Positions 1 through 11,134 of a DNA stretch of 11,134 bases are shown in pieces. This DNA comes from a virus (lineage: Duplodnaviria; Heunggongvirae; Uroviricota; Caudoviricetes): the IMG/VR virus record IMGVR_UViG_2695420687_000012; one strand, written 5' to 3'. The notes beneath the pieces are model-generated. The model worked only from the letters and a program-made list of their open reading frames with translations. It searched no databases and was not told the origin of the DNA. Within the stretch, counting starts at the first letter, position 1, and each line of letters opens with the position of its first letter. A program made the translations under genes and the position numbers.

Positions 1-858
1 GTAGACGCTCAGGCGACGAAAAATTGAAGCTTCCTGCNGNNGNNCGCCATACTCCAGCGATTCCGTGTTTTTGATAAGCGGGCGTACTGCTGGATGCGTT
101 TTAAAGCGAGCCAGCAGCTCGCTTGCCGGAACACGACTTTGCGTAAGGGAGGAGAGCGGGCAAACAATCCCTAACGAAAGCGTTTGTTGATTAGTATAAA
201 GAAATGCGCCGCCGGGTAAGTCATCACAGATTCCGCCGCTGAACAGCAACGCTGCGCCTTCGTTATTCTCCAGATGAAAACGTTCTTCAATAGAGGATGT
301 TTCCAGCGCCAGCACTTCTTTGATCCCCAACGCCATCGCTTCGCCAGCAGGGCGAGTCACTAACCCGTGTCGTTCAGCCAGGATGCTATTAGCACCTTCC
401 GCCAGCACCACATAACGGGCGCGGAGAATATCGTCACCACAAATGACACCACAGATTCTGCCGTTTTCTTCATACAGCGTATCCAGTGTCGCGCCAGGGA
501 TACACTCGACACCTTCTTTTTCGGCTTCGGCAACCAGCCACGGATCGAAACGGGCGCGCAAGACGCTCCAGGATTCACCGCCAGGCTGTAAGCTGGAAAA
601 CGTTGTTGCGCCATCGGGTGTTAACAGGGAAAGGCTTTCGTGAGTGATACGTCGCTCAAGAGGTGCAGTCAGGTGATATTGGGGGAGGAGTTCCGCGAGC
701 GCATGGGTATATAAACGCCCGCCGGAAAGGTTTTTGCTGCCGGGGATTTCAGCACGTTCCAGTAACAGAACGGATAAACCCGCTCGCGCGCAGCGCAACG
801 CGCAGGCGGTGCCCGCAATTCCGGCACCGATAATAATAATGTCGCAGTCATCTTCCAT
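1..858 (-). CDS. ygcN: FAD-dependent oxidoreductase of the FixC / ETF-quinone oxidoreductase family (YgcN-like); 3' end runs off the window start
   Basis: Minus-strand translation from the ATG at 858-856 reads MEDDCDIIIIGAGIAGTACALRCARAGLSVLLLERAEIPGSKNLSGGRLYTH..., with an N-terminal GxGxxG dinucleotide-binding motif, and stays open to position 1. Absent from the ORF track because no stop lies in the window; the track ORFs 360..614 and 669..896 are other frames. Sits directly downstream of queD as in E. coli (recalled gene order). N's at 39-46 fall inside it. Confidence 0.65.
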   Translation of the reverse strand, partial: MEDDCDIIIIGAGIAGTACALRCARAGLSVLLLERAEIPGSKNLSGGRLYTHALAELLPQYHLTAPLERRITHESLSLLTPDGATTFSSLQPGGESWSVLRARFDPWLVAEAEKEGVECIPGATLDTLYEENGRICGVICGDDILRARYVVLAEGANSILAERHGLVTRPAGEAMALGIKEVLALETSSIEERFHLENNEGAALLFSGGICDDLPGGAFLYTNQQTLSLGIVCPLSSLTQSRVPASELLARFKTHPAVRPLIKNTESLEYGXXXQEASIFRRLSVY

Positions 859-2915: not shown

Positions 2916-2926
2916 NCNNNGNNGGT

Positions 2927-3367
2927 ATGTCAATACATCTCGCTATTGCCGATGGCGGCAACCAGGGATATTTCGATTACACATCACAGCATAACGTCAT
3001 TATGTGGAGATGGCTGATCGCAACAGTATTCATGCTGGAAATGAGAGAGGAAAACGGCACTGTCAGCATCATTGATGATACTGGCAATCCTTCCGAAGTG
3101 GCTGTTTATTCCAACGGCATCGTCGCCATGCCGCTGTATCCAGTAGCAGAGCGCCTCGCTATGGCAAACAACATTGAGGGCGCGATGATAGAACGTTTTG
3201 GCATCGAGTCTGGCACAGAACGCGCCATCATTTTCTACAGAGCCATGATGGATGTGGAACAAGGAGCACTGACTCCATTTGGTCGTGAAACGCTTGCTGA
3301 ACTTCACAACAGCTTTATAGCTGAACTGAATGAAAACGGCATGCCAGCGGAACCAGTGACGCACTGA
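2927..3367 (+). CDS. Hypothetical protein, first gene of the element operon (5' end uncertain)
   Basis: Track ORF of 146 aa with a protein-like composition. The frame is open upstream into the N-run at 2916-2924, so the ATG at 2927 may not be the true start. Confidence 0.5.
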   Translation: MSIHLAIADGGNQGYFDYTSQHNVIMWRWLIATVFMLEMREENGTVSIIDDTGNPSEVAVYSNGIVAMPLYPVAERLAMANNIEGAMIERFGIESGTERAIIFYRAMMDVEQGALTPFGRETLAELHNSFIAELNENGMPAEPVTH

Positions 3368-3377
3368 GGATGGATCC

Positions 3378-3719
3378 ATGATTACTAAAAATTTCCGACT
3401 GAATGCGCTGGCAAATAAGTATGCGTCGGCACTGTATAACCACATTACCTCCACCAGCGGCTGGGACTATTTCATGGTTGATGCGGACGGCGAGGCCGTC
3501 CGTGTGGAAATCGTCAATGGAGTAAAAGGCGTTCGCAGCCTGATCGATAGCTACACACTGGCAGCCATGAAAGTGTTCTACCCGCAGTGGGAAACCGTGG
3601 GGATAGAGCTTCTTGATCGTTGCGTCACTAAGGACGGATTGACTGACGTCGGGCGTGAGATATGGCAAAGCATGGTTAATGACATGGGCGCAACTGTAGC
3701 GGGAGGTTCTCATGCGTGA
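3378..3719 (+). CDS. Hypothetical protein (113 aa)
   Basis: Track ORF; GAGGA Shine-Dalgarno at 3365-3369 about 9 nt before the ATG; begins 10 nt after the upstream stop and overlaps the next ORF by 8 nt. No motif I recognise. Confidence 0.6.
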   Translation: MITKNFRLNALANKYASALYNHITSTSGWDYFMVDADGEAVRVEIVNGVKGVRSLIDSYTLAAMKVFYPQWETVGIELLDRCVTKDGLTDVGREIWQSMVNDMGATVAGGSHA

Positions 3720-4083
3720 AAATGCAGAAATGGCGCTTAGCTCCGCAATCGGAGAGCAGGTGGCAAAGATTGCTGGCGCTGTGTGGATTCATAACCTTCA
3801 TTCTACTGGTGAAGAGAAAATGGCAATTCAGACGCCAGAGGGACGCACCATTACTACATCTCTGAAGGCGTCAGATGTTTGTGATCTGATTTGCGCATTC
3901 ATGTACCCAGCAATGAGGACTGTCCACGGCGATAAGTGGAAACTTGCGACAACCGCTGAATTTGATATGTGGCTAAACAATGATGGCATGCTGACTGATT
4001 ACGGAATAACCAAGTGGCAGATGCTGGTTAGCCATATCGCAAACGCTATAGACCACGTGGGGTACGGTGATGCGAAACATTGA
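3712..4083 (+). CDS. Hypothetical protein (123 aa)
   Basis: Track ORF; GGGAGG Shine-Dalgarno at about 3699-3704; its 3' end overlaps the primase start (4067/4070), suggesting translational coupling. Confidence 0.6.
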   Translation: MRENAEMALSSAIGEQVAKIAGAVWIHNLHSTGEEKMAIQTPEGRTITTSLKASDVCDLICAFMYPAMRTVHGDKWKLATTAEFDMWLNNDGMLTDYGITKWQMLVSHIANAIDHVGYGDAKH

Positions 4084-6826
4084 TCTTATCCGTCAGGTTA
4101 TCAGTGCGTCTGAAAACAACTGGCCTCATGTGCTGGGCTGCCTGAACATAAATGTCCCTGACTCTCCGCGCCGTCATGCTCCCTGCCCTGCATGTGGGGG
4201 CAAAGATCGATTCCGGTTCGATGACAACGGGCGCGGTAGCTTCATCTGTAATCAGTGCGGCGCTGGTGATGGACTGGATTTAATTAAACGCGTAAATAAC
4301 TGCGACACAACAGAGGCGGCGCTTCTTGCCGCTGATGTTCTGGGTATTGATTACCGGACAACGGAAACACCAGAAGCCACCAGCCAGAAACGGGAACAAC
4401 TGGAAACCGAGCGCCAGCGACGCGAACAGGAGCGCCTGAAAAGGGCAGAGAAGGACGAACAACAAAGACGGGATACGTTTTCCCGTCAGTTTGATGACAT
4501 GCGCAGAAAGGCTGTAAACGGCAAATCTGATTATCTGGTTGCGAAAGGGGTAGGTGATTTTACATTCCCCGTGTTGCCCGATGGATCTCTGTTGCTGGCG
4601 CTGGTGGATAAATCCGGCGCAGTAACAGCAGCACAGACTATTACCTCACATGGTGAAAAAAGACTCCTGACAGGTTCAGCAAAGCGAGGGGCATATCACG
4701 CCATAAACGCACCAGAAACAACACAGAGCATCTTAATCGCAGAAGGGCTGGCAACGGCATTATCTGCCCATTTAATTCGTCCAGAGGCGCTGACAGTGGC
4801 GGCGATTGATGCCGGGAACCTGTTATATGTCGCCCAGGTACTGCGGGATAAATTTCCTTCAGCACAAATCATCATTGCTGCGGATAACGACCACAGCGAA
4901 GGAAGACAAAACACGGGGAGAATAGCAGCAGAAAAAGCAGCTTTATCTGTTTCTGGATGGGTGGCATTACCCCCGACAGATCACAAAGCAGACTGGAATG
5001 ATTACCACCAAAAACACGGCATTAAATGCGCCACAGAAGCGTTCAATAAGTCAATGTACCAACCACAGGGTAATGGCGTGAAACAGGAGCCACAGACCAT
5101 TGAGGGAAGCGATTTTAAGGTTATGGATACCGACCCACTGAAACCAAGAATAGAAAGCCGCGAGGATGGTATTTATTGGGTATCTCCGAGAGCTGACAGC
5201 CAGAGTGGAGAAATCATCAATAACGAAAGCTGGTTATGTTCTCCGTTAAGCGTTATCGGTACTGGCAGAGACGATAAAGACCAGTATCTCATTCTTCGCT
5301 GGCTGTCGTTTGGTTCTGAAACGCCGACAACCGCTGCCATTCCACTGGCTGATATTGGTGAACGTGAAGGATGGCGCACACTTAAAGCTGGTGGGGTAAA
5401 TGTCACGACCAAAAGCAGCCTCAGAGCAATACTGGCAGACTGGCTACAACGCAGTGGCTCTCGTGAATTGTGGCGTGTTGCTCATGCCACTGGCTGGCAA
5501 TGCGGAGCGTACATCATGCCTGATGGGGAAATCATCGGAACACCTGAAAATCCTGTGCTGTTCAGCGGGAGAAGCTCAGCCGCAGCCGGATATACCGTCT
5601 CAGGGAGCGCGAAAAGCTGGCGTGATAACGTGGCGCGTCTGGCCTTTGGTAACTATTCAATGATGACCGGGATCGGCGCAGCACTGGCAGCGCCATTGAT
5701 TGGGCTGGTGGGCGCTGACGGGTTCGGCATTCATTTCTATGAGCAGTCGAGCGCAGGTAAGACCACCACGGCAAACGTGGCGAGCAGCTTATACGGCAAC
5801 CCTGATTTACTGCGGCTGACGTGGTACGGAACCGCGCTGGGGCTGGCAAATGAAGCTGCCGCCCACAATGACGGACTAATGCCGCTTGATGAAGTTGGTC
5901 AGGGCGCTGATCCTGTCAGTGTGTCACAGTCTGCCTATGCGTTATTTAACGGTGTAGGGAAACTGCAAGGCGCTAAAGATGGTGGAAACCGGGATCTAAA
6001 ACGCTGGCGTACAGTGGCAATCAGCACCGGAGAAATGGATTTAGAAACATTTATCGCTACTTCCGGGCGAAAAACCAAAGCCGGGCAACTGGTGCGACTG
6101 CTGAATATTCCGTTGAGTAAAGCAGTACGCTTTCACGATTACCAGAACGGAAAACAGCACGCAGACGCACTGAAAGACGCTTACCAGCATCACCACGGCG
6201 CAGCCGGGCGTGAGTGGATTAAATGGCTGGCAGACCACCAGCAACAGGCAATTAAAACTGTTCGTGACTGCGAAAGCAGATGGAGAAGTCTGATCCCATC
6301 CGATTATGGTGAGCAGGTTCACCGTGTAGCCGCGCGATTTGCCATTCTGGAGGCCGCATTGCTGTTAGGCGAGGTTGTAACAGGCTGGGATGCTCAGACA
6401 TGCCGTGATGCGATACAGCACAGCTATAACGCATGGTTGCGCGAGTTCGGCACAGGTAACAAAGAACATCAGCAGATTATTGAACAAACGGAGGCATTTC
6501 TTAATGCCTATGGGCTTAGCCGTTTTGCACCATTTCCATACAGCCCGGCAGATTTGCCCATCAAAGATTTAGCCGGATACCGTCAGCGTGGAGAACATGA
6601 CGAAAGCCCAATGATTTTCTACACATTCCCGGCCACATTTGAAAAGGAGATCGCATGTGGTTTCAACGCAAAACAGTTTGCTGAAGTGTTGAAAAAAGCC
6701 GGGATGCTAACCCCACCAAACAGCGGTCGTGGATACCAAAGAAAATCACCACGTATTCAGGGACGACAAATAAACGTTTATGTACTCAATTACCAGCCAG
6801 GAGATTACAACTCATCTGAAGAATGA
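4067..6826 (+). CDS. Replication primase/helicase-like protein: N-terminal zinc ribbon, P4-type TOPRIM primase, C-terminal P-loop NTPase (DUF927-like)
   Basis: 919-aa track ORF (GTG at 4067 or ATG at 4070). CPACGG...CNQCG zinc ribbon at about 4186-4261; a highly charged helix (ERQRREQERLKRAEKDEQQRRD); IAEGLATA at about 4739-4759, matching the EGYATA-type motif of P4 alpha primase; acidic AADNDHSEG at about 4876-4902; Walker A-like SSAGKTT at about 5747-5767; Walker B-like LMPLDEV at about 5875-5895. Confidence 0.85.
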   Translation: MMRNIDLIRQVISASENNWPHVLGCLNINVPDSPRRHAPCPACGGKDRFRFDDNGRGSFICNQCGAGDGLDLIKRVNNCDTTEAALLAADVLGIDYRTTETPEATSQKREQLETERQRREQERLKRAEKDEQQRRDTFSRQFDDMRRKAVNGKSDYLVAKGVGDFTFPVLPDGSLLLALVDKSGAVTAAQTITSHGEKRLLTGSAKRGAYHAINAPETTQSILIAEGLATALSAHLIRPEALTVAAIDAGNLLYVAQVLRDKFPSAQIIIAADNDHSEGRQNTGRIAAEKAALSVSGWVALPPTDHKADWNDYHQKHGIKCATEAFNKSMYQPQGNGVKQEPQTIEGSDFKVMDTDPLKPRIESREDGIYWVSPRADSQSGEIINNESWLCSPLSVIGTGRDDKDQYLILRWLSFGSETPTTAAIPLADIGEREGWRTLKAGGVNVTTKSSLRAILADWLQRSGSRELWRVAHATGWQCGAYIMPDGEIIGTPENPVLFSGRSSAAAGYTVSGSAKSWRDNVARLAFGNYSMMTGIGAALAAPLIGLVGADGFGIHFYEQSSAGKTTTANVASSLYGNPDLLRLTWYGTALGLANEAAAHNDGLMPLDEVGQGADPVSVSQSAYALFNGVGKLQGAKDGGNRDLKRWRTVAISTGEMDLETFIATSGRKTKAGQLVRLLNIPLSKAVRFHDYQNGKQHADALKDAYQHHHGAAGREWIKWLADHQQQAIKTVRDCESRWRSLIPSDYGEQVHRVAARFAILEAALLLGEVVTGWDAQTCRDAIQHSYNAWLREFGTGNKEHQQIIEQTEAFLNAYGLSRFAPFPYSPADLPIKDLAGYRQRGEHDESPMIFYTFPATFEKEIACGFNAKQFAEVLKKAGMLTPPNSGRGYQRKSPRIQGRQINVYVLNYQPGDYNSSEE

Positions 6827-6851
6827 GCTTCTTCATGTGCGTAGAAAAGGC

Positions 6852-6962
6852 GTTGGTTCAGTTGGTTCAGTTGGTTCAATTTGTAAAGAGTATTGTTTTA
6901 TAAGGATTTTATTCTTTTTATTGAACCAACACTGAACCAACAACACGGTATTTTGAACCAAC
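6852..6962. repeat. Iteron array, putative origin of replication: 3 tandem GTTGGTTCA, AT-rich spacer, 3 inverted TGAACCAAC
   Basis: Perfect 9-mers at 6852-6860, 6861-6869 and 6870-6878; an AT-rich stretch at 6879-6921; reverse-complement copies at 6922-6930, 6933-6941 and 6954-6962 (11 and 21 bp apart, roughly helical phasing). Lies immediately 3' of the primase gene. Confidence 0.65.
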
Positions 6963-7012
6963 ACAATGTGACTGAATTGATGCGCACAACACCTGGCTGG
7001 CATCAGAGAGTG

Positions 7013-7088
7013 TTTTACGAGACTTTCGTAAAATCCTGTGTACAAGGGCGTGACGTTTTTGAAAGTGAGCACTACGAAATTTTCGTAG
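7013..7088. promoter_or_regulatory. Two related palindromes sharing a TTTCGTA / TACGAAA half-site; possible operators
   Basis: TTTTACGA-gactt-TCGTAAAA at 7013-7033 and CTACGAAA-T-TTTCGTAG at 7072-7088, about 55 bp apart, between the iterons and the terminator. Confidence 0.3.
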
Positions 7089-7282
7089 TTCAGAAAACAG
7101 CCCCTGAGAAGTTGTTATGCCTGTTCAGCAAACCATCCGCATAGCTGATCGCGAATCAAATTACCAATGGAGCCAGAAGCAAGGGCAGAACTGAAAAGCG
7201 CCTGCCGTGAAGAGTAATGCGACACCATAAATATAGTTTTTAGAGTCCATAAAAAACCTGTCAAAACCTGACACACAGAACG

Positions 7283-7315
7283 ATGCCACCAGCTACTGAG
7301 CGGTGGCATTTTTTT
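7283..7315 (+). terminator. Rho-independent terminator
   Basis: atgccacc(7283-7290) / ggtggcat(7302-7309) stem, 11-nt loop, then a T-run at 7309-7315. Confidence 0.6.
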
Positions 7316-7348
7316 GTGCTATCTGTTTCATATTTTGCAATTACTATG

Positions 7349-7397
7349 ATGAATATTGCGATTTGTGAAACTATAATAACTGTTGTTTTATACAGTT
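7349..7397 (+). promoter_or_regulatory. Promoter of the small-gene cassette with an overlapping LexA-type (SOS) box
   Basis: Perfect -10 TATAAT at 7372-7377 with a weak -35 upstream. Directly after it, aaCTGTtgttttatACAGtt (7378-7397) has the CTGT-N8-ACAG geometry and AT-rich centre of the E. coli LexA consensus TACTGT(AT)4ACAGTA, covering the likely transcription start. Shine-Dalgarno AAGGGGG at 7400-7406. Confidence 0.5.
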
Positions 7398-7410
7398 ATA
7401 AGGGGGCGTT

Positions 7411-7572
7411 ATGGCTATTTCAGTAAAGCCGGTATTGATAAGTGAGAAGCAAATGGAAGCGATAAAGAAAATTCAGGAAGAGCAGCGTAAAAAATCAGGA
7501 ATTGGAGTAGCGCCAACTCTGCATGAAATTGCACGAGGGTTAATAGATAAGGCGCTGGCAGGCTGTATGTGA
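7411..7572 (+). CDS. Small hypothetical protein (53 aa), possibly a small DNA-binding regulator
   Basis: Below the track's 60-aa cutoff; hand translation gives MAISVKPVLISEKQMEAIKKIQEEQRKKSGIGVAPTLHEIARGLIDKALAGCM. Strong Shine-Dalgarno; first gene after the LexA-box promoter. The strand-plus-two-helix pattern is suggestive of a ribbon-helix-helix fold but unverified. Confidence 0.5.
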   Translation: MAISVKPVLISEKQMEAIKKIQEEQRKKSGIGVAPTLHEIARGLIDKALAGCM

Positions 7573-7588
7573 AAATGGATGGCATCGC

Positions 7589-8050
7589 ATGGAACTAAAA
7601 TTTATTGATAACCCTGTGCGATTACAGGCCTTTCTTAACGAGCCTGGCAATACCGAAAATATTGTTGAGCCGGGGCACACGTACTACATCAAGCCTGATG
7701 CGGTATATCTCGGTATCTACGAAGGATTGGTGCTGGCTGGCGTTCATGAAGTGCGTAACTTCTGGCATAGCATTGTTGAATGCCATGCGGTGTACGACCC
7801 CGGATTCCGTGGTGAATATGCACTACAAGGGCATCGATTATTCTGCAAATGGCTTCTCGAAAACTCACCATTCCTTAACAGCATCACCATGGTTCCTGAC
7901 ACAACGAAATACGGACGGGCAATTATCCGTTTGCTTGGCGCTACCCGTGTTGGTCACCTTGATGATGCTTATATCAGATGTGGTAAACCCGTCGGCGTAA
8001 CGCTTTATCAGTTAACTCGGCAACAATATAAGGAATTCAGCGAATGTTAA
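7589..8050 (+). CDS. Hypothetical protein (153 aa), no family recognised
   Basis: Track ORF MELKFIDNPVRLQAFLNEPGNTENIVEPGHTYYIKPDAVYLGIYEGLVLAGVHEVRNFWHSIVECHAVYDPGFRGEYALQGHRLFCKWLLENSPFLNSITMVPDTTKYGRAIIRLLGATRVGHLDDAYIRCGKPVGVTLYQLTRQQYKEFSEC; globular composition with several conserved-looking Cys/His. The overlapping track ORF 7605..8000 is a low-complexity alternative frame. Confidence 0.6.
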   Translation: MELKFIDNPVRLQAFLNEPGNTENIVEPGHTYYIKPDAVYLGIYEGLVLAGVHEVRNFWHSIVECHAVYDPGFRGEYALQGHRLFCKWLLENSPFLNSITMVPDTTKYGRAIIRLLGATRVGHLDDAYIRCGKPVGVTLYQLTRQQYKEFSEC

Positions 8051-8197
8051 TTACCCATATAGCTCATAAATATCTCAATCGTGCCGTATACGAAAAAGGC
8101 GGTGATGGTGGTGCCTCTAAAGCTCAGGCGAAGGCCCAGCAGCAGGCAATTGATTTGCAGCGCGAGCAGTGGAATACGGTGATGAATAATCTCAAGC
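8044..8197 (+). CDS. Hypothetical protein, 5' part only (cut at the N junction 8198-8199)
   Basis: The start overlaps the upstream stop (ATGTTAA). MLITHIAHKYLNRAVYEKGGDGGASKAQAKAQQQAIDLQREQWNTVMNNLK: a Gly-rich segment followed by an Ala/Gln-rich helix. The track ORF 8044..8325 continues across the N's in the wrong frame into fadM and REP sequence. Confidence 0.45.
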
Positions 8198-8199
8198 NN

Positions 8200-8263
8200 T
8201 ATGCAGAAAGCTTTAGCTCTGGAAGGGGAATTGCGCGAAAAGCTGGAACAGATGGTGAACTAA
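8200..8263 (+). CDS. fadM: Long-chain acyl-CoA thioesterase FadM, last about 20 codons only
   Basis: Frame MQKALALEGELREKLEQMVN followed by a stop (8261-8263) matches the recalled FadM C-terminus (...TQKALALEGELREKLEQMVK); convergent with queC as in E. coli. Confidence 0.6.
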
Positions 8264-8269
8264 AGGGAC

Positions 8270-8360
8270 TATGGCGCCGGATGCAGTGCTGTGGCGGCTT
8301 ATCCGGCTTACAAGCAAAATCGTAGGCCGAATAAGGTATTCGCGCCGTATCCGGCGACAC
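8270..8360. repeat. REP / BIME element (two inverted REP units)
   Basis: gcgccggatgcagtgctgtggcggcttatccggcttac and the inverted copy gtaggccgaataaggtattcgcgccgtatccggcgac, typical E. coli repetitive extragenic palindromes between convergent genes. Confidence 0.7.
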
Positions 8361-8369
8361 TCGAGATAA

Positions 8370-9065
8370 TTACTTCAATCCGGTCTTCTGTTTCATCGCC
8401 GCCATCACCGCCGGTTTATCGGCCAGATAATGATTCAACCCGTTGGCGCGTAAGTTACACGCTGCACAATGGCCGCAACCGTCGCCTTTTATGCCGTTGT
8501 AGCAGGTCAGGGTTTCGCTACGCACTAAATCCAGCTTGCCGTAATAATCCGCCAGCGCCCAGGTTTCTGCTTTATCAATCCACATCAGCGGCGTTTCAAA
8601 ACGAATATCTTTCGCCATACCCAGACTGACGGCGTGGTTCAACGCTTTCACGAATTCATCGCGGCAATCCGGGTAGCCGGAGAAATCTGTTTCGCAGACA
8701 CCGGTAATCACAGCTTCTGCCTTCACCTGATACGCATAAATTGCTGCCAGAGTCAGGAATAAAATATTGCGCCCCGGCACAAAGGTATTAGGAATTCCAT
8801 CGGCGTCGGGTTCATAATCGGGCACCGGAATACTGTCACGCGTCAGGCTGCTGACAGCCAGTTGGTTAAGCAGCGTCACATCCAGCACTTTATGCGCGCG
8901 CGCGCCCAGTTTCAGCGCCAGCTCGCGAGCGACGTCTATCTCTGCGCGATGGCGCTGACCGTAATCAAACGTCACGCAATGGACTTCATCGTATTGCTGT
9001 AATGCCTGCACCAGACATGTGGTGGAATCCTGGCCTCCACTGAACACAACGACAGCACGTTTCAT
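8370..9065 (-). CDS. queC: 7-cyano-7-deazaguanine synthase QueC
   Basis: 231-aa track [23 protein letters not shown]...[35 protein letters not shown], near-identical to recalled E. coli QueC, including the SGGxDS PP-loop and C-terminal Cys cluster. Confidence 0.9.
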
Positions 9066-9129
9066 AAATCATCCTGCTAAATCAATAAAAGCGTTATGGT
9101 AACGCTTGCGGGTAACCCCGACCAGCGCT

Positions 9130-9990
9130 TCATTGCGACGGCGCGGGAAGCCAGGCTTCGGTAAATTCAAACCAGCCACGTGGTGTCAGGCGGACACCGT
9201 TCACACCGGGCGGCGCGCTGATACGGTAATGATAGTTAAACAGCGGCGTCAGCGTGGCGTCGTCCATTAGCTGGTTAAACACCGTTTTCAGGGCGTTATG
9301 CCGGTTTTCCTCATCAGGCATAATTTGCACGGCATCCAGCGTCGATTGCAGATGCGTATATGCGCTGGCAGTGAAAACATGCGGCCACAGAGGATCACAA
9401 CGCAGCCATTGTTCAAGGGTATATTCTGGTGCCTCGCCAATCAGCCTGTCGCCCATCATCAAATCTGCCTGTGCCAGTGAAGCGGCATCGTCCCAGTTTT
9501 TCGCGTTATGAAAAATGATTTTTAGTTCACAACCTTCTGCCGCCAGTGTTGCTCGTAACTGTTCCGCCATGGCATGAAGTTCCACTGGCAGGTGATAAAC
9601 CAGTGTCAATGTTTCTGGGCGTTTGACTTCTACTGGCACTTCCCACTGTGGAATAGTCCAGCCTGGCAGCAATGCATGACTGGCGGTGATCAGATTTTCT
9701 CCGACTTCTAATGTTTGTAATAGACCGGATTGATGAATGATGGCGATCACTTTTCGCGCCTGCCAGAGAGTAAGTCTGGCGCTTTTACGTAATGTTAAAT
9801 AGCAAAACCCCAAACTAATACCGCTACTGACCGGGCTGACCATCGGTAAATCTTCAGGTTTGCCGATGGTGATTTGTACCGGATGCCGACAACTGGTACC
9901 CAAATCTTTTTCAAAAAGCGGAGGGGTTATCCAGTACTCAACCGCTTTTAGCAGCGGGTGACGTAAATGGTAATAATCATGGCTTTCCAG
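9130..9990 (-). CDS. ybaE: C-terminal about 286 codons of a YbaE / SgrR-C-like solute-binding-domain protein (5' part absent)
   Basis: C-terminal part of track ORF 9130..10509 (LESHDYYHLRHP...LTPRGWFEFTEAWLPAPSQ). The tail resembles the recalled SgrR C-terminus, and the gene sits upstream of queC as ybaE does in E. coli. Confidence 0.6.
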   Translation of the reverse strand: MESHDYYHLRHPLLKAVEYWITPPLFEKDLGTSCRHPVQITIGKPEDLPMVSPVSSGISLGFCYLTLRKSARLTLWQARKVIAIIHQSGLLQTLEVGENLITASHALLPGWTIPQWEVPVEVKRPETLTLVYHLPVELHAMAEQLRATLAAEGCELKIIFHNAKNWDDAASLAQADLMMGDRLIGEAPEYTLEQWLRCDPLWPHVFTASAYTHLQSTLDAVQIMPDEENRHNALKTVFNQLMDDATLTPLFNYHYRISAPPGVNGVRLTPRGWFEFTEAWLPAPSQ

Positions 9991-10002
9991 NCGGCNNNAN
10001 TN

Positions 10003-10548
<546 letters not shown>

Positions 10549-10846
10549 TTACATCTTGATAACTTAGATGAAAATATTATTCAACATAGAGTTTTTTATG
10601 GTGAGCTGGCTCACACCTCCCTGACGCTGCGGGAATATAGCGTCTTTAGTATCTCCTGCTAAACGCGCTTTTTATCCAGCAGAAAATTCCACTCTGGAGC
10701 GGATTATTGGCACTCCGATAATAAGAAATCGCAAAGAAAAAAATTCTCCGGCGACGCGGTTTTTAACCCGTGTTCTATGCTTGAAATGAGGTCCTCCACA
10801 CAGAGAGTACCGACAACAATGAGGTGCGCGTATGNCNNCGNTGNNN

Positions 10847-11134
10847 CTGGCTTCATAGGTTGGGCGGTTGCCGCTGGTGGTGGTGGCGCGACGGATTGCC
10901 ATAAATGACTGCGCTATGTCGGTGTGTCCGGCGTCAAACTCCAGACGACGGTGACTGATAATGTCGTAGGCCTTGAGTACCAGGGCGTTTTTAACGTTGG
11001 GGTTGTAGACAAACTCCCGGACGGCTGGAAAAAACGCTTTCACGTTCTCGTAAACCCCGTGGCCGACACCTGTCGAGTCGATGCCGATGTAGGTTACGTT
11101 GTACTGCTCGGTCAGNGTNNACCGAGAAAATGGC
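10847..11134 (-). CDS. Phage protein fragment with an RNase H-like IGID motif, possibly a terminase large-subunit nuclease domain; open to the window end
   Basis: Minus-strand frame ...TEQYNVTYIGIDSTGVGHGVYENVKAFFPAVREFVYNPNVKNALVLKAYDIISHRRLEFDAGHTDIAQSFMAIRRATTTSGNRPTYEA, cut at the N-run 10835-10846. The track ORF 10672..11043 is this frame read across the junction. Confidence 0.35.

What the first reader, a model, noticed from the sequence alone, without database searches (positions are those of the whole stretch)
6852..6962. Symmetric iteron array: three tandem GTTGGTTCA, AT-rich spacer, three inverted TGAACCAAC
Six perfect copies of a 9-mer in a head-to-head arrangement around a 43-bp AT-rich core, immediately 3' of a primase/helicase gene, is the classic layout of an initiator-bound replication origin (as for the P4 ori/crr iterons, or PICI origins). 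The 11- and 21-bp spacing of the inverted copies puts sites on one face of the helix. The 9-mer differs from the P4 iteron TGTTCACC that I recall, so this is a different specificity.
Basis: partly seen in the sequence, partly recalled or inferred. Interest (0 to 1): 0.55.

Follow-up and report, generated by a model that had tools for sequence, protein, structure and literature searches.

The report
Satellite-island replication origin with iterons
The six 9-base repeats around an AT-rich core are almost certainly the replication origin of a phage-satellite-like E. coli island, recognised by the tail of the primase-helicase encoded just upstream; this origin layout is already known from SaPI and PICI islands, so it is a tidy new example, not a new mechanism.

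Summary
Three tandem GTTGGTTCA lie at 6852-6878, a 43-bp core of 16% GC at 6879-6921, and three inverted copies at 6922, 6933 and 6954. The array starts 25 bp after the stop of a 919-aa Zn-ribbon/Toprim/DUF927 primase-helicase.

The core is the least stable duplex in the 5.3-kb island block. In 55 of 62 homologous loci across Enterobacterales, and in one Desulfohalobiaceae MAG, the same layout follows the gene. The repeat word differs among them in about nine classes. The word co-varies with a short C-terminal stretch of the primase-helicase (residues 892-897, RKSPRI). It does not co-vary with neighbouring genes.

The helicase part is homologous to SaPIbov1 Rep (PDB 8TCH), a self-loading initiator whose C-terminal domain binds iterons placed just 3' of its gene. 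Only the N-terminal primase domain resembles P4 alpha.

I conclude this is a SaPI/PICI-type origin. The layout is published for SaPIs and for Gram-negative PICIs, so this is a new member of a known kind. No replication or binding was measured.

Extras:
- The native E. coli island carries a second, mirrored iteron cluster 8.5 kb away.
- The window itself is a mosaic contig.

The parts
4067..6826 (+). Primase-helicase initiator gene (919 aa). Domains: Zn-ribbon primase 35-70, Toprim 222-319, DUF927 helicase 366-644, C-terminal DNA-binding region about 815-919.
   Evidence: Pfam hits. phrog_1139 'DNA primase' matches over the full length. Residues 403-814 match SaPIbov1 Rep 8tch_A at E 1e-11 and Cch 5dgk. 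Residues 8-362 are 33% identical to P4 alpha.
6740..6757 (+). Codons for residues 892-897 (RKSPRI), the inferred iteron-specificity segment in the C-terminal wing-like hairpin.
   Evidence: Five of the only 7 columns (of 919) that separate GAACCAAC-type from GAGACAAC-type proteins fall here. All 19 TAACCCGT-type discriminating columns lie in residues 811-919. 28 of 32 same-iteron proteins have no private change in 885-900.
6793..6801 (+). CCAGCCAGG, the left copy of an outer inverted repeat. It lies inside the last codons of the gene (Q910-P911).
   Evidence: 9/9 complementary to 6992-7000 (pair I11). CCAGCCAG is present at the gene's 3' end in 27 of 47 loci. Its function is inferred only.
6852..6878 (+). 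Left arm: three contiguous GTTGGTTCA iterons with a 9-bp period.
   Evidence: Copy number is polymorphic: 4 in E. coli 10_253 and 2 to 7 in other species.
6879..6921 (.). AT-rich core (16% GC), the inferred DNA-unwinding element.
   Evidence: Lowest-GC 43-mer and least stable 40-mer of the island block. A ttttataagg-ttttatt core recurs across several iteron classes.
6922..6962 (-). Right arm: three inverted iterons (TGAACCAAC on the + strand) starting at 6922, 6933 and 6954, spaced 11 and 21 bp.
   Evidence: The +0/+11/+32 geometry is kept in nearly all relatives, whatever the repeat word.
6992..7000 (+). CCTGGCTGG, the right copy of the outer inverted repeat. In the long arrays of relatives, further iterons follow this motif.
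   Evidence: CTGGCTGG-like motif is found 150-170 nt after the stop in about half of 47 loci, against about 0.06 expected per locus. Its function is inferred only.

Best explanation
This is the replication origin of a PICI-like integrative island of Escherichia, and it works like a SaPI/PICI origin.

Proposed mechanism:
1. The island's primase-helicase recognises the 9-bp iterons with its C-terminal domain. Residues around 892-897 set the specificity.
2. The two oppositely oriented iteron sets place two initiator oligomers, probably hexamers, head-to-head on either side of the 43-bp AT-rich core.
3. The core melts. The DUF927 helicase loads itself without host DnaA or DnaC and moves outward.
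4. The fused Zn-ribbon/Toprim primase makes the primers, and the host polymerase does the synthesis.

Shown here:
- the repeats and their non-random occurrence;
- the core as the least stable duplex of the island block;
- conservation of the layout next to the gene across genera;
- concerted replacement of the repeat word together with the initiator's C-terminal tail;
- homology of the helicase to SaPIbov1 Rep.

Inferred only: binding, melting, the oligomeric state, priming, and whether this array suffices without the second cluster found in the native island.
For: 1. Six exact copies where 0.085 are expected, and a core 3.8 sd less stable than the block mean.
2. 55 of 62 homologous loci carry at least 4 copies of a short word, in both orientations, starting 25-60 bp after the stop. 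The geometry is shared: a 9-bp tandem left arm, 51-53 bp between the inner copies in most loci, and a right arm at +0/+11/+32. This includes a Desulfohalobiaceae MAG whose protein is 30% identical.
3. The word differs among relatives: GAACCAAC, GAGACAAC, TAACCCGT, GAACCGAC, TACCCGAC, TAACCCAC, TGGGATAA, AACCGAC, CAGGGGCA. All copies change together.
4. The word co-varies with the initiator's C-terminus. The downstream 53-aa ORF and the upstream ORFs do not track it.
5. Residues 403-814 are homologous to SaPIbov1 Rep (8tch, E 1e-11) and Cch. The C-terminal model's best structural match is 8tch_A, followed by winged-helix proteins, but this is weak.
6. Published SaPI Reps bind 6-12 iterons immediately 3' of rep through a C-terminal winged helix. 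An AT-rich centre separates iterons of opposite orientation (PMC9371898, PMC7581432). Gram-negative PICI origins have two iteron sets flanking an AT-rich region 3' of pri-rep, and EcCICFT073 pri-rep-ori drives plasmid maintenance (PMC6092414). The EcCICFT073 origin, read here, shows the same layout with the word CTGTCTACC.
7. The array has no DnaA box within 2 mismatches, no IHF consensus, no sigma-70 promoter and no intrinsic terminator.
8. The native island has int, an AlpA-like HTH, DUF4222, ash and perC.
Against: - No experiment exists for this initiator family in enterobacteria. Binding and replication are inferred.
- The C-terminal model is of low confidence (pLDDT 61), so the winged-helix fold is not established.
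- A profile of the C-terminus finds nothing in the PDB by sequence.
- In P4 the iteron block immediately 3' of alpha is crr, a cis-acting helper, and not the origin proper. The native E. coli island has a second cluster 8.5 kb away. This array may therefore be one half of a bipartite system.
- Four of 62 relatives show no array after the gene.
- The window is a mosaic contig with only part of the island, so nothing can be said about activity in its source organism.
Confidence: 0.85

Rival explanations
1. A crr-like cis-acting replication enhancer rather than the start site. As in P4, the iteron block next to the primase gene would help the initiator act on a separate origin. Here that would be the second cluster upstream of perC.
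For: P4 annotation places crr (two 120-bp repeats carrying type-1 iterons, with a 9-bp tandem pair and inverted copies) directly 3' of alpha, and ori 4.5 kb away. The native island L001 has a second, mirrored 5-copy cluster 8.5 kb downstream.
Against: Several relatives (for example L012, L019, L022, L025, L027) have only the short 4-5-copy array, directly followed by perC, within the 3 kb of DNA held downstream of the gene. The array holds the least stable duplex of the block. SaPI and PICI origins with this layout are the initiation sites (PMC9371898, PMC6092414). The helicase part is not of the P4 type.
Confidence: 0.1
2. Operator sites. The iterons would mainly let the primase-helicase, or another island protein, regulate transcription of itself or of the downstream genes.
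For: In long arrays the last three tandem copies abut a conserved 'cttatata' element just upstream of perC. Iteron-binding initiators of plasmids commonly autoregulate (general knowledge).
Against: The window's array has no promoter-like site. It lies 3' of its gene. The AT-rich core and the two-arm layout are not needed for an operator. The small RHH-like protein and the upstream ORFs do not track the iteron word. Regulation could still be a secondary role.
Confidence: 0.07
3. A structural hairpin or cruciform, such as a transcription terminator for the primase gene or a single-strand origin.
For: The single strand folds to -25.8 kcal/mol, z = -5.7.
Against: That fold follows trivially from the inverted repeats. 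The arms differ in spacing (9/9 against 11/21), so the stem is bulged, and the loop is about 40 nt with no T-run. The terminator scan finds nothing in the array. Rfam gives only sub-threshold miRNA-hairpin noise. Long arrays add direct copies that cannot pair. Co-variation with a protein segment is not expected for a bare hairpin.
Confidence: 0.02
4. A packaging (pac/cos) site or a recombination site of the island.
For: Satellites carry helper pac/cos sites. The island encodes an integrase.
Against: The integrase gene and the att site at tRNA-Thr are 8-9 kb away. The word tracks the primase-helicase tail. No terminase gene is adjacent.
Confidence: 0.02

Closest known systems
SaPI replication origins with Rep self-loading helicases (SaPIbov1, SaPI1; Ubeda et al. 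2007 as cited in PMC7581432 and PMC9371898)
   Same: The origin sits immediately 3' of the initiator gene. There are 6-12 short iterons in two sets of opposite orientation around an AT-rich centre. The initiator is a helicase whose C-terminal domain reads the iterons. The helicase core here is homologous to SaPIbov1 Rep (8tch, E 1e-11), and both carry DUF927.
   Different: The iterons are 9 bp here, against 5-6 bp in SaPIs. The primase is a fused DnaG/T7/P4-type Zn-ribbon-Toprim domain, whereas SaPIbov1 has a separate AEP primase. The host is Gram-negative. An outer CCAGCCAGG/CCTGGCTGG inverted repeat is present.
Gram-negative PICI origins (EcCICFT073 pri-rep-ori, Fillol-Salom et al. 2018, PMC6092414)
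   Same: Same host genus and same island style (int, AlpA-like HTH, DUF4222, perC, unidirectional genes). The origin layout is the same: a tandem pair with a 9-bp period, an AT-rich spacer and inverted copies. For EcCICFT073 the function was shown by plasmid maintenance.
   Different: The initiator is not detectably related. EcCICFT073 has a 584-aa D5-type 'DNA primase family protein', with a best BLASTP E of 1.2 against this one. Its iteron is CTGTCTACC. None of the six listed E. coli PICIs inspected has a TOPRIM-DUF927 initiator. This island carries P22-like ejection genes instead of capsid or terS genes.
Satellite phage P4 ori/crr with alpha protein
   Same: The N-terminal primase domain is homologous (33% identity over residues 8-362). 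An iteron block lies directly 3' of the primase-helicase gene, with a 9-bp tandem pair plus inverted copies. Two iteron clusters are kilobases apart, if the native island is considered.
   Different: The helicase and origin-binding parts are not alignable. The iteron is TGTTCACC, against GTTGGTTCA here. P4 crr is a 120-bp duplication. No other P4 genes (sid, psu, delta, epsilon, cI RNA) are present.
SCCmec Cch/Cch2 helicases and their putative origin (PMC7581432)
   Same: Cch is a DUF927 helicase and matches weakly here (5dgk). Cch2 binds direct repeats just downstream of its gene through its C-terminal domain.
   Different: That site has only three 5-nt direct repeats. No two-arm layout around an AT core is described, and replication has not been shown in vivo.
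Iteron plasmids (pSC101, F, P1, R6K type; general knowledge)
   Same: Repeated initiator-binding sites lie next to an AT-rich unwinding region.
   Different: Plasmid iterons are about 17-22 bp direct repeats. They are bound by a winged-helix Rep that lacks helicase activity and depends on DnaA boxes, IHF and host DnaB/DnaC. The array here has no DnaA box within 2 mismatches and no IHF site.

Membership tests
SaPI/PICI-type origin | The origin lies immediately 3' of the initiator (rep or pri-rep) gene. | tested here: met
   The first iteron starts 25 bp after the stop codon. The position is the same in 55 of 62 relatives.
SaPI/PICI-type origin | Two sets of short iterons, with at least two on each side pointing in opposite directions, flank an AT-rich region. 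| tested here: met
   Three plus three copies surround a 43-bp core of 16% GC, which is the least stable segment of the block.
SaPI/PICI-type origin | The initiator is a Rep-type self-loading helicase. | tested here: met
   DUF927 domain at E 3.5e-47. Residues 403-814 match SaPIbov1 Rep 8tch_A at E 1e-11. Helicase activity itself was not tested.
SaPI/PICI-type origin | The C-terminal winged-helix domain of the initiator recognises the iterons specifically. | tested here: inconclusive
   Co-variation places specificity in residues 811-919, mainly 892-897. The fold model has pLDDT 61, and its top Foldseek hit is 8tch_A at E 0.014 and TM 0.41. There is no binding assay.
SaPI/PICI-type origin | An initiator-plus-ori fragment drives autonomous replication. 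| not testable with these tools
   This needs a plasmid-maintenance assay, as done for EcCICFT073 (PMC6092414).
Gram-negative PICI (the element) | int, alpA, pri-rep and ori arranged in one direction, with specific att sites. | tested here: met
   Native island L001 at tRNA-Thr carries int, an HTH regulator, antA/B, DUF4222, ash, the primase-helicase, the array and perC, all on one strand. The window holds only part of it.
Gram-negative PICI (the element) | Induction and packaging by a helper phage. | not testable with these tools
   No data. The P22-like gp14/gp7/gp20/gp16 genes in the island hint at a P22-like helper.
P4 ori/crr system | An alpha-type initiator (primase + SF3 helicase + C-terminal origin-binding domain). 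| tested here: not met
   Only residues 8-362 align with alpha. The helicase and C-terminus do not.
P4 ori/crr system | Type-1 iteron TGTTCACC. | tested here: not met
   P4 iterons were read at 4314-4405 and 9310-9413. The word here is GTTGGTTCA.
P4 ori/crr system | Two cis-acting iteron regions kilobases apart. | tested here: inconclusive
   The native island has clusters at L001 14153-14263 and 22683-22794. The window has one. Many relatives have a single short or long array.
Iteron-plasmid origin | 17-22-bp direct repeats with DnaA boxes and IHF sites. | tested here: not met
   The word is 9 bp and occurs in both orientations. There is no IHF consensus in the window and no DnaA box within 2 mismatches between 6737 and 7036.

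The most novel reading that the evidence does not exclude
The family may offer a natural, compact recognition code. A segment of about six residues in the initiator's C-terminal hairpin (RKSPRI against GRV-RE and others) would be enough to retarget the origin between 9-bp words that differ by two bases, giving sets of mutually orthogonal replicons.

In the native E. coli island, the two mirrored origins may also act together to over-replicate the captured P22-type ejection-protein module that lies between them. That would resemble the P4 ori/crr arrangement while using a SaPI-type helicase.

The conserved outer CCAGCCAGG/CCTGGCTGG repeat might mark the primase start sites.
Probability: 0.25. 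Interest if true: 0.5.

Novelty: new member of a known kind. Interest (0 to 1): 0.3.

Why it matters
- It assigns a function to a conserved intergenic array found in about 6% of complete E. coli genomes and in many Enterobacterales.
- It links an uncharacterised TOPRIM-DUF927 protein to the experimentally studied SaPI Rep initiators.
- It predicts which few residues set origin specificity, and so which islands can or cannot cross-replicate.
- It provides about nine natural initiator/iteron pairs that could be tested as orthogonal replicons.
- It does not change how satellite replication is understood.

Tried and rejected
- P4 membership: rejected. Only the primase domain is shared and the iteron differs.
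- Plasmid-type origin with DnaA/IHF sites: none in the array.
- RNA gene or terminator: Rfam gives only sub-threshold miRNA-hairpin noise. There is no terminator or sigma-70 promoter in the array.
- Hairpin fold: significant, but a trivial consequence of the inverted repeats.
- Other candidate binders: the conserved 53-aa RHH-like ORF (7411-7572) and the upstream ORFs do not track the iteron word.
- Direct homology to the tested EcCICFT073 Pri-Rep: none by BLASTP.
The second gave pLDDT 61 and only weak matches. A C-terminal profile finds nothing in the PDB by sequence.
- Literature search for the 9-mer itself: only unrelated hits. The supplement of PMC6092414 does not list this word or a thrW island.
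- Tracing the window's source through its QueC and QueD proteins: this showed the flanks are unrelated blocks, not the island's natural context.

Full report
**1. The observation**

Reading 6600-7250 shows GTTGGTTCA three times in tandem at 6852-6878, a 43-bp spacer, and the reverse complement TGAACCAAC starting at 6922, 6933 and 6954. An exact 9-mer is expected 0.085 times in this window on both strands. None of 200 shuffles reached the observed number of matches at <=1 mismatch.

The spacer has 16% GC, against 48.7% for the surrounding island block. It is the lowest-GC 43-mer of that block and its least stable 40-bp duplex (dG -40.5, against a mean of -55.0 with sd 3.8 kcal/mol).

The array begins 25 bp after the stop codon of ORF 4067-6826. 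The one correction is that only the right arm (11 and 21 bp) is helically phased. The left arm is a contiguous 9-bp tandem.

**2. Context**

The ORF encodes 919 aa with a primase Zn-ribbon (35-70), a Toprim domain (222-319) and DUF927 (366-644). It matches phrog_1139 'DNA primase' end to end.

Window 2924-8208 is 99.3-99.9% identical to a chromosomal island found in E. coli. The 451 bp around the array occur at >=80% coverage in 330 of 5426 complete genomes.

In strain AR_0137 the island sits next to tRNA-Thr. It reads: integrase, AlpA-like HTH, antA/B, DUF4222, ash, several small ORFs, the TOPRIM-DUF927 gene, a 585-bp unannotated gap holding the array, then a DUF2824 (gp14-like) gene and P22-like ejection-protein genes, and further on perC. 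All of these are on one strand. This is the gene order described for Gram-negative PICIs (PMC6092414, PMC10111431).

The window itself is not a natural context. It contains short N-containing junctions at 38-44, 2262-2265, 2916-2923, 8198-8199, 9991-10002, 10835-10846 and 11116-11120. Block 8203-9993 is a queC locus cut inside its neighbouring genes. The array lies more than 1.2 kb from any junction.

**3. Relatives**

A scan of one genome per species returned 77 loci encoding relatives of the protein. Of the 62 with enough downstream DNA, 55 carry at least 4 copies of an 8-mer, in both orientations, starting 25-60 bp after the stop. Three more have 3 copies.

The geometry is shared:
- 2-3 (up to 7) contiguous copies with a 9-bp period;
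- about 51-53 bp between the inner copies in most loci;
- three inverted copies at +0, +11 and +32.

Many loci then continue with a CCTGGCTGG-like motif and a further 5-6 copies, ending at a 'cttatata' element in front of perC.

The word is not conserved. The classes seen are GAACCAAC (this type), GAGACAAC, TAACCCGT, GAACCGAC, TACCCGAC, TAACCCAC, TGGGATAA, AACCGAC and, in a Desulfohalobiaceae MAG whose protein is 30% identical, CAGGGGCA. Every copy in an array carries the same word. Layout is therefore under selection, and the word is replaced in concert, as expected for sites read by a co-evolving protein.

Other variation:
- Within E. coli the left arm varies by whole units (4 copies in strain 10_253), while the right arm is unchanged.
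- Four loci show no array.
- A Klebsiella phage record carries a helicase-only homologue followed by the same GTTGGTTCA array.

**4. Which protein reads the repeats**

I aligned 47 full-length proteins and compared the 32 followed by GAACCAAC with the 5 followed by GAGACAAC. Only 7 of 919 positions have non-overlapping residue sets, and 5 of these are residues 892-897 (RKSP.I against GRV-.E). For the TAACCCGT type, all 19 discriminating positions lie in residues 811-919.

Within the GAACCAAC type, 28 of 32 proteins have no private substitution in 885-900, although they carry up to 130 elsewhere.

Negative controls behave as expected:
- The conserved 53-aa ORF downstream (7411-7572) is nearly identical in two loci with different words.
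- The upstream ORFs show no type-specific positions, or are absent from most loci.

The specificity determinant is therefore the C-terminal tail of the primase-helicase.

**5. What kind of initiator it is**

Residues 403-814 match the solved SaPIbov1 Rep (8tch_A, E 1e-11) and, weakly, the SCCmec helicase Cch (5dgk). P4 alpha aligns only with residues 8-362 (33% identity).

An AlphaFold model of the last 150 residues has low confidence (pLDDT 61). It shows two helices followed by a beta-hairpin that contains residues 892-897. Its best PDB match is again 8tch_A (E 0.014, TM 0.41), followed by winged-helix DNA-binding proteins. I treat the winged-helix assignment as consistent but not established.

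**6. Mechanism**

Published work on SaPIs shows the following (PMC9371898, PMC7581432):
- Rep is a self-loading helicase whose C-terminal winged helix binds 6-12 iterons placed immediately 3' of rep.
- The iterons flank an AT-rich centre in opposite orientation.
- Binding and melting need no ATP.
- Two hexamers probably load, one on each side.

[quoted passage not shown] I read the EcCICFT073 origin and found the same layout with the word CTGTCTACC.

By homology and layout I infer the same sequence of events here. C-terminal domains dock on the two arms, the 43-bp core melts, the DUF927 helicase loads and moves outward, and the fused Toprim primase primes. The absence of DnaA boxes and IHF sites in the array fits independence from the host initiator.

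Two points are my own inference:
- A 9-bp period rotates successive sites by about -51 degrees. This is close to the 60-degree step between neighbours in a hexameric ring.
- The outer inverted repeat CCAGCCAGG (6793-6801, inside the last codons) / CCTGGCTGG (6992-7000) is conserved in about half the loci. It could mark loading or priming sites.

**7. Comparison with known systems**

It works like a SaPI/PICI origin and meets the testable defining features. Replication itself cannot be tested here.

It is not a P4 origin. In P4 the block directly 3' of alpha is crr, with ori 4.5 kb away.

That comparison is still useful. The native E. coli island has a second cluster of five GTTGGTTCA copies in mirrored order 8.5 kb downstream, just in front of perC. 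The P22-like genes lie between the two clusters. The window does not reach it.

The initiator is unrelated at BLASTP level to that of EcCICFT073. None of the six E. coli PICIs from the 2018 list that I inspected has a TOPRIM-DUF927 gene. A later survey does count DUF927 proteins among PICI primases (PMC10111431).

**8. Rivals**

- crr-like helper role: possible (about 0.1). However, several relatives have only the short array before perC within the DNA held.
- Operator role: probably secondary at most. The array lies 3' of its gene and has no promoter.
- Hairpin, terminator or RNA readings: these fail on the arm asymmetry, the scans and the protein co-variation.
- Packaging or recombination sites: nothing supports them.

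**9. Verdict**

It is a new, uncharacterised member of a known kind of origin.

What this analysis adds:
- the cross-genus conservation of layout with word switching;
- the mapping of specificity to a few C-terminal residues;
- the second cluster in the native island.

None of this has been tested experimentally.

Noticed in passing
window 38-44, 2262-2265, 2916-2923, 8198-8199, 9991-10002, 10835-10846, 11116-11120: Short clusters of N mark junctions between unrelated blocks. The island segment is 2924-8197. Block 8203-9993 is a queC locus cut inside its neighbouring genes, and ORF 9130-10509 is a fusion across a junction. The window is a mosaic or chimeric contig, so its flanks say nothing about the island's integration site.
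   Followed up: partly
L001 22683-22794 (E. coli AR_0137, outside the window): A second cluster of five exact GTTGGTTCA copies lies 8.5 kb downstream of the first, immediately 5' of perC. It has three copies spaced 21 bp, an AT-rich spacer, and two tandem copies, in mirrored order. This explains why the query hits two places per genome. It recalls P4 ori/crr.
   Followed up: partly
window 7589-8197; L001 14890-20058: The island carries P22-like gp14 (DUF2824), gp7-, gp20- and gp16-like ejection-protein genes between the two iteron clusters. Among the 77 species-representative loci this module occurs only in the Escherichia version. It looks like a captured late-gene block and may point to a P22-like helper.
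   Followed up: partly
window 6793-6801 and 6992-7000: An outer inverted repeat, CCAGCCAGG / CCTGGCTGG, brackets the array. The left copy lies in the Q-P codons of the otherwise variable acidic C-terminus. One or the other is conserved in about half of the relatives, far above chance.
   Followed up: partly
window 7016-7030 and 7073-7087: Two near-identical 15-bp palindromes (TACGAGACTTTCGTA and TACGAAATTTTCGTA) lie 57 bp apart in the gap between the array and the next genes. They may be operators. They remain unexplained.
   Followed up: no
window 7411-7572 (+): A 53-aa ORF, annotated as a hypothetical protein in E. coli AR_0137, is conserved in at least 18 relatives and reads like a ribbon-helix-helix protein. 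It does not track the iteron word.
   Followed up: partly
L093 153-188; L061 (Erwinia MAG): The left-arm copy number is polymorphic in whole 9-bp units: 4 copies in E. coli 10_253, 7 in L061 and 2 in several species. The right-arm spacing stays fixed.
   Followed up: yes
L091 4216-4520 (Klebsiella phage P12620-1, PQ569648.1): A deposited 106-kb phage record encodes a helicase-only homologue (no primase domain, 69.5% identical over residues 339-908). It is followed by a long array of the same GTTGGTTCA word.
   Followed up: partly
L033 3001-6866 (Yersinia pekkanenii): The primase-helicase match spans about 1.1 kb more than in other loci. A protein from that genome is annotated as containing an HNH endonuclease domain and shares the C-terminus (P0080). 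This suggests an insertion such as an HNH element or intein.
   Followed up: no
L092 (E. coli ETEC6333): The perC-proximal iteron cluster survives in a degraded island that has lost the primase-helicase gene. Orphan arrays therefore exist.
   Followed up: no
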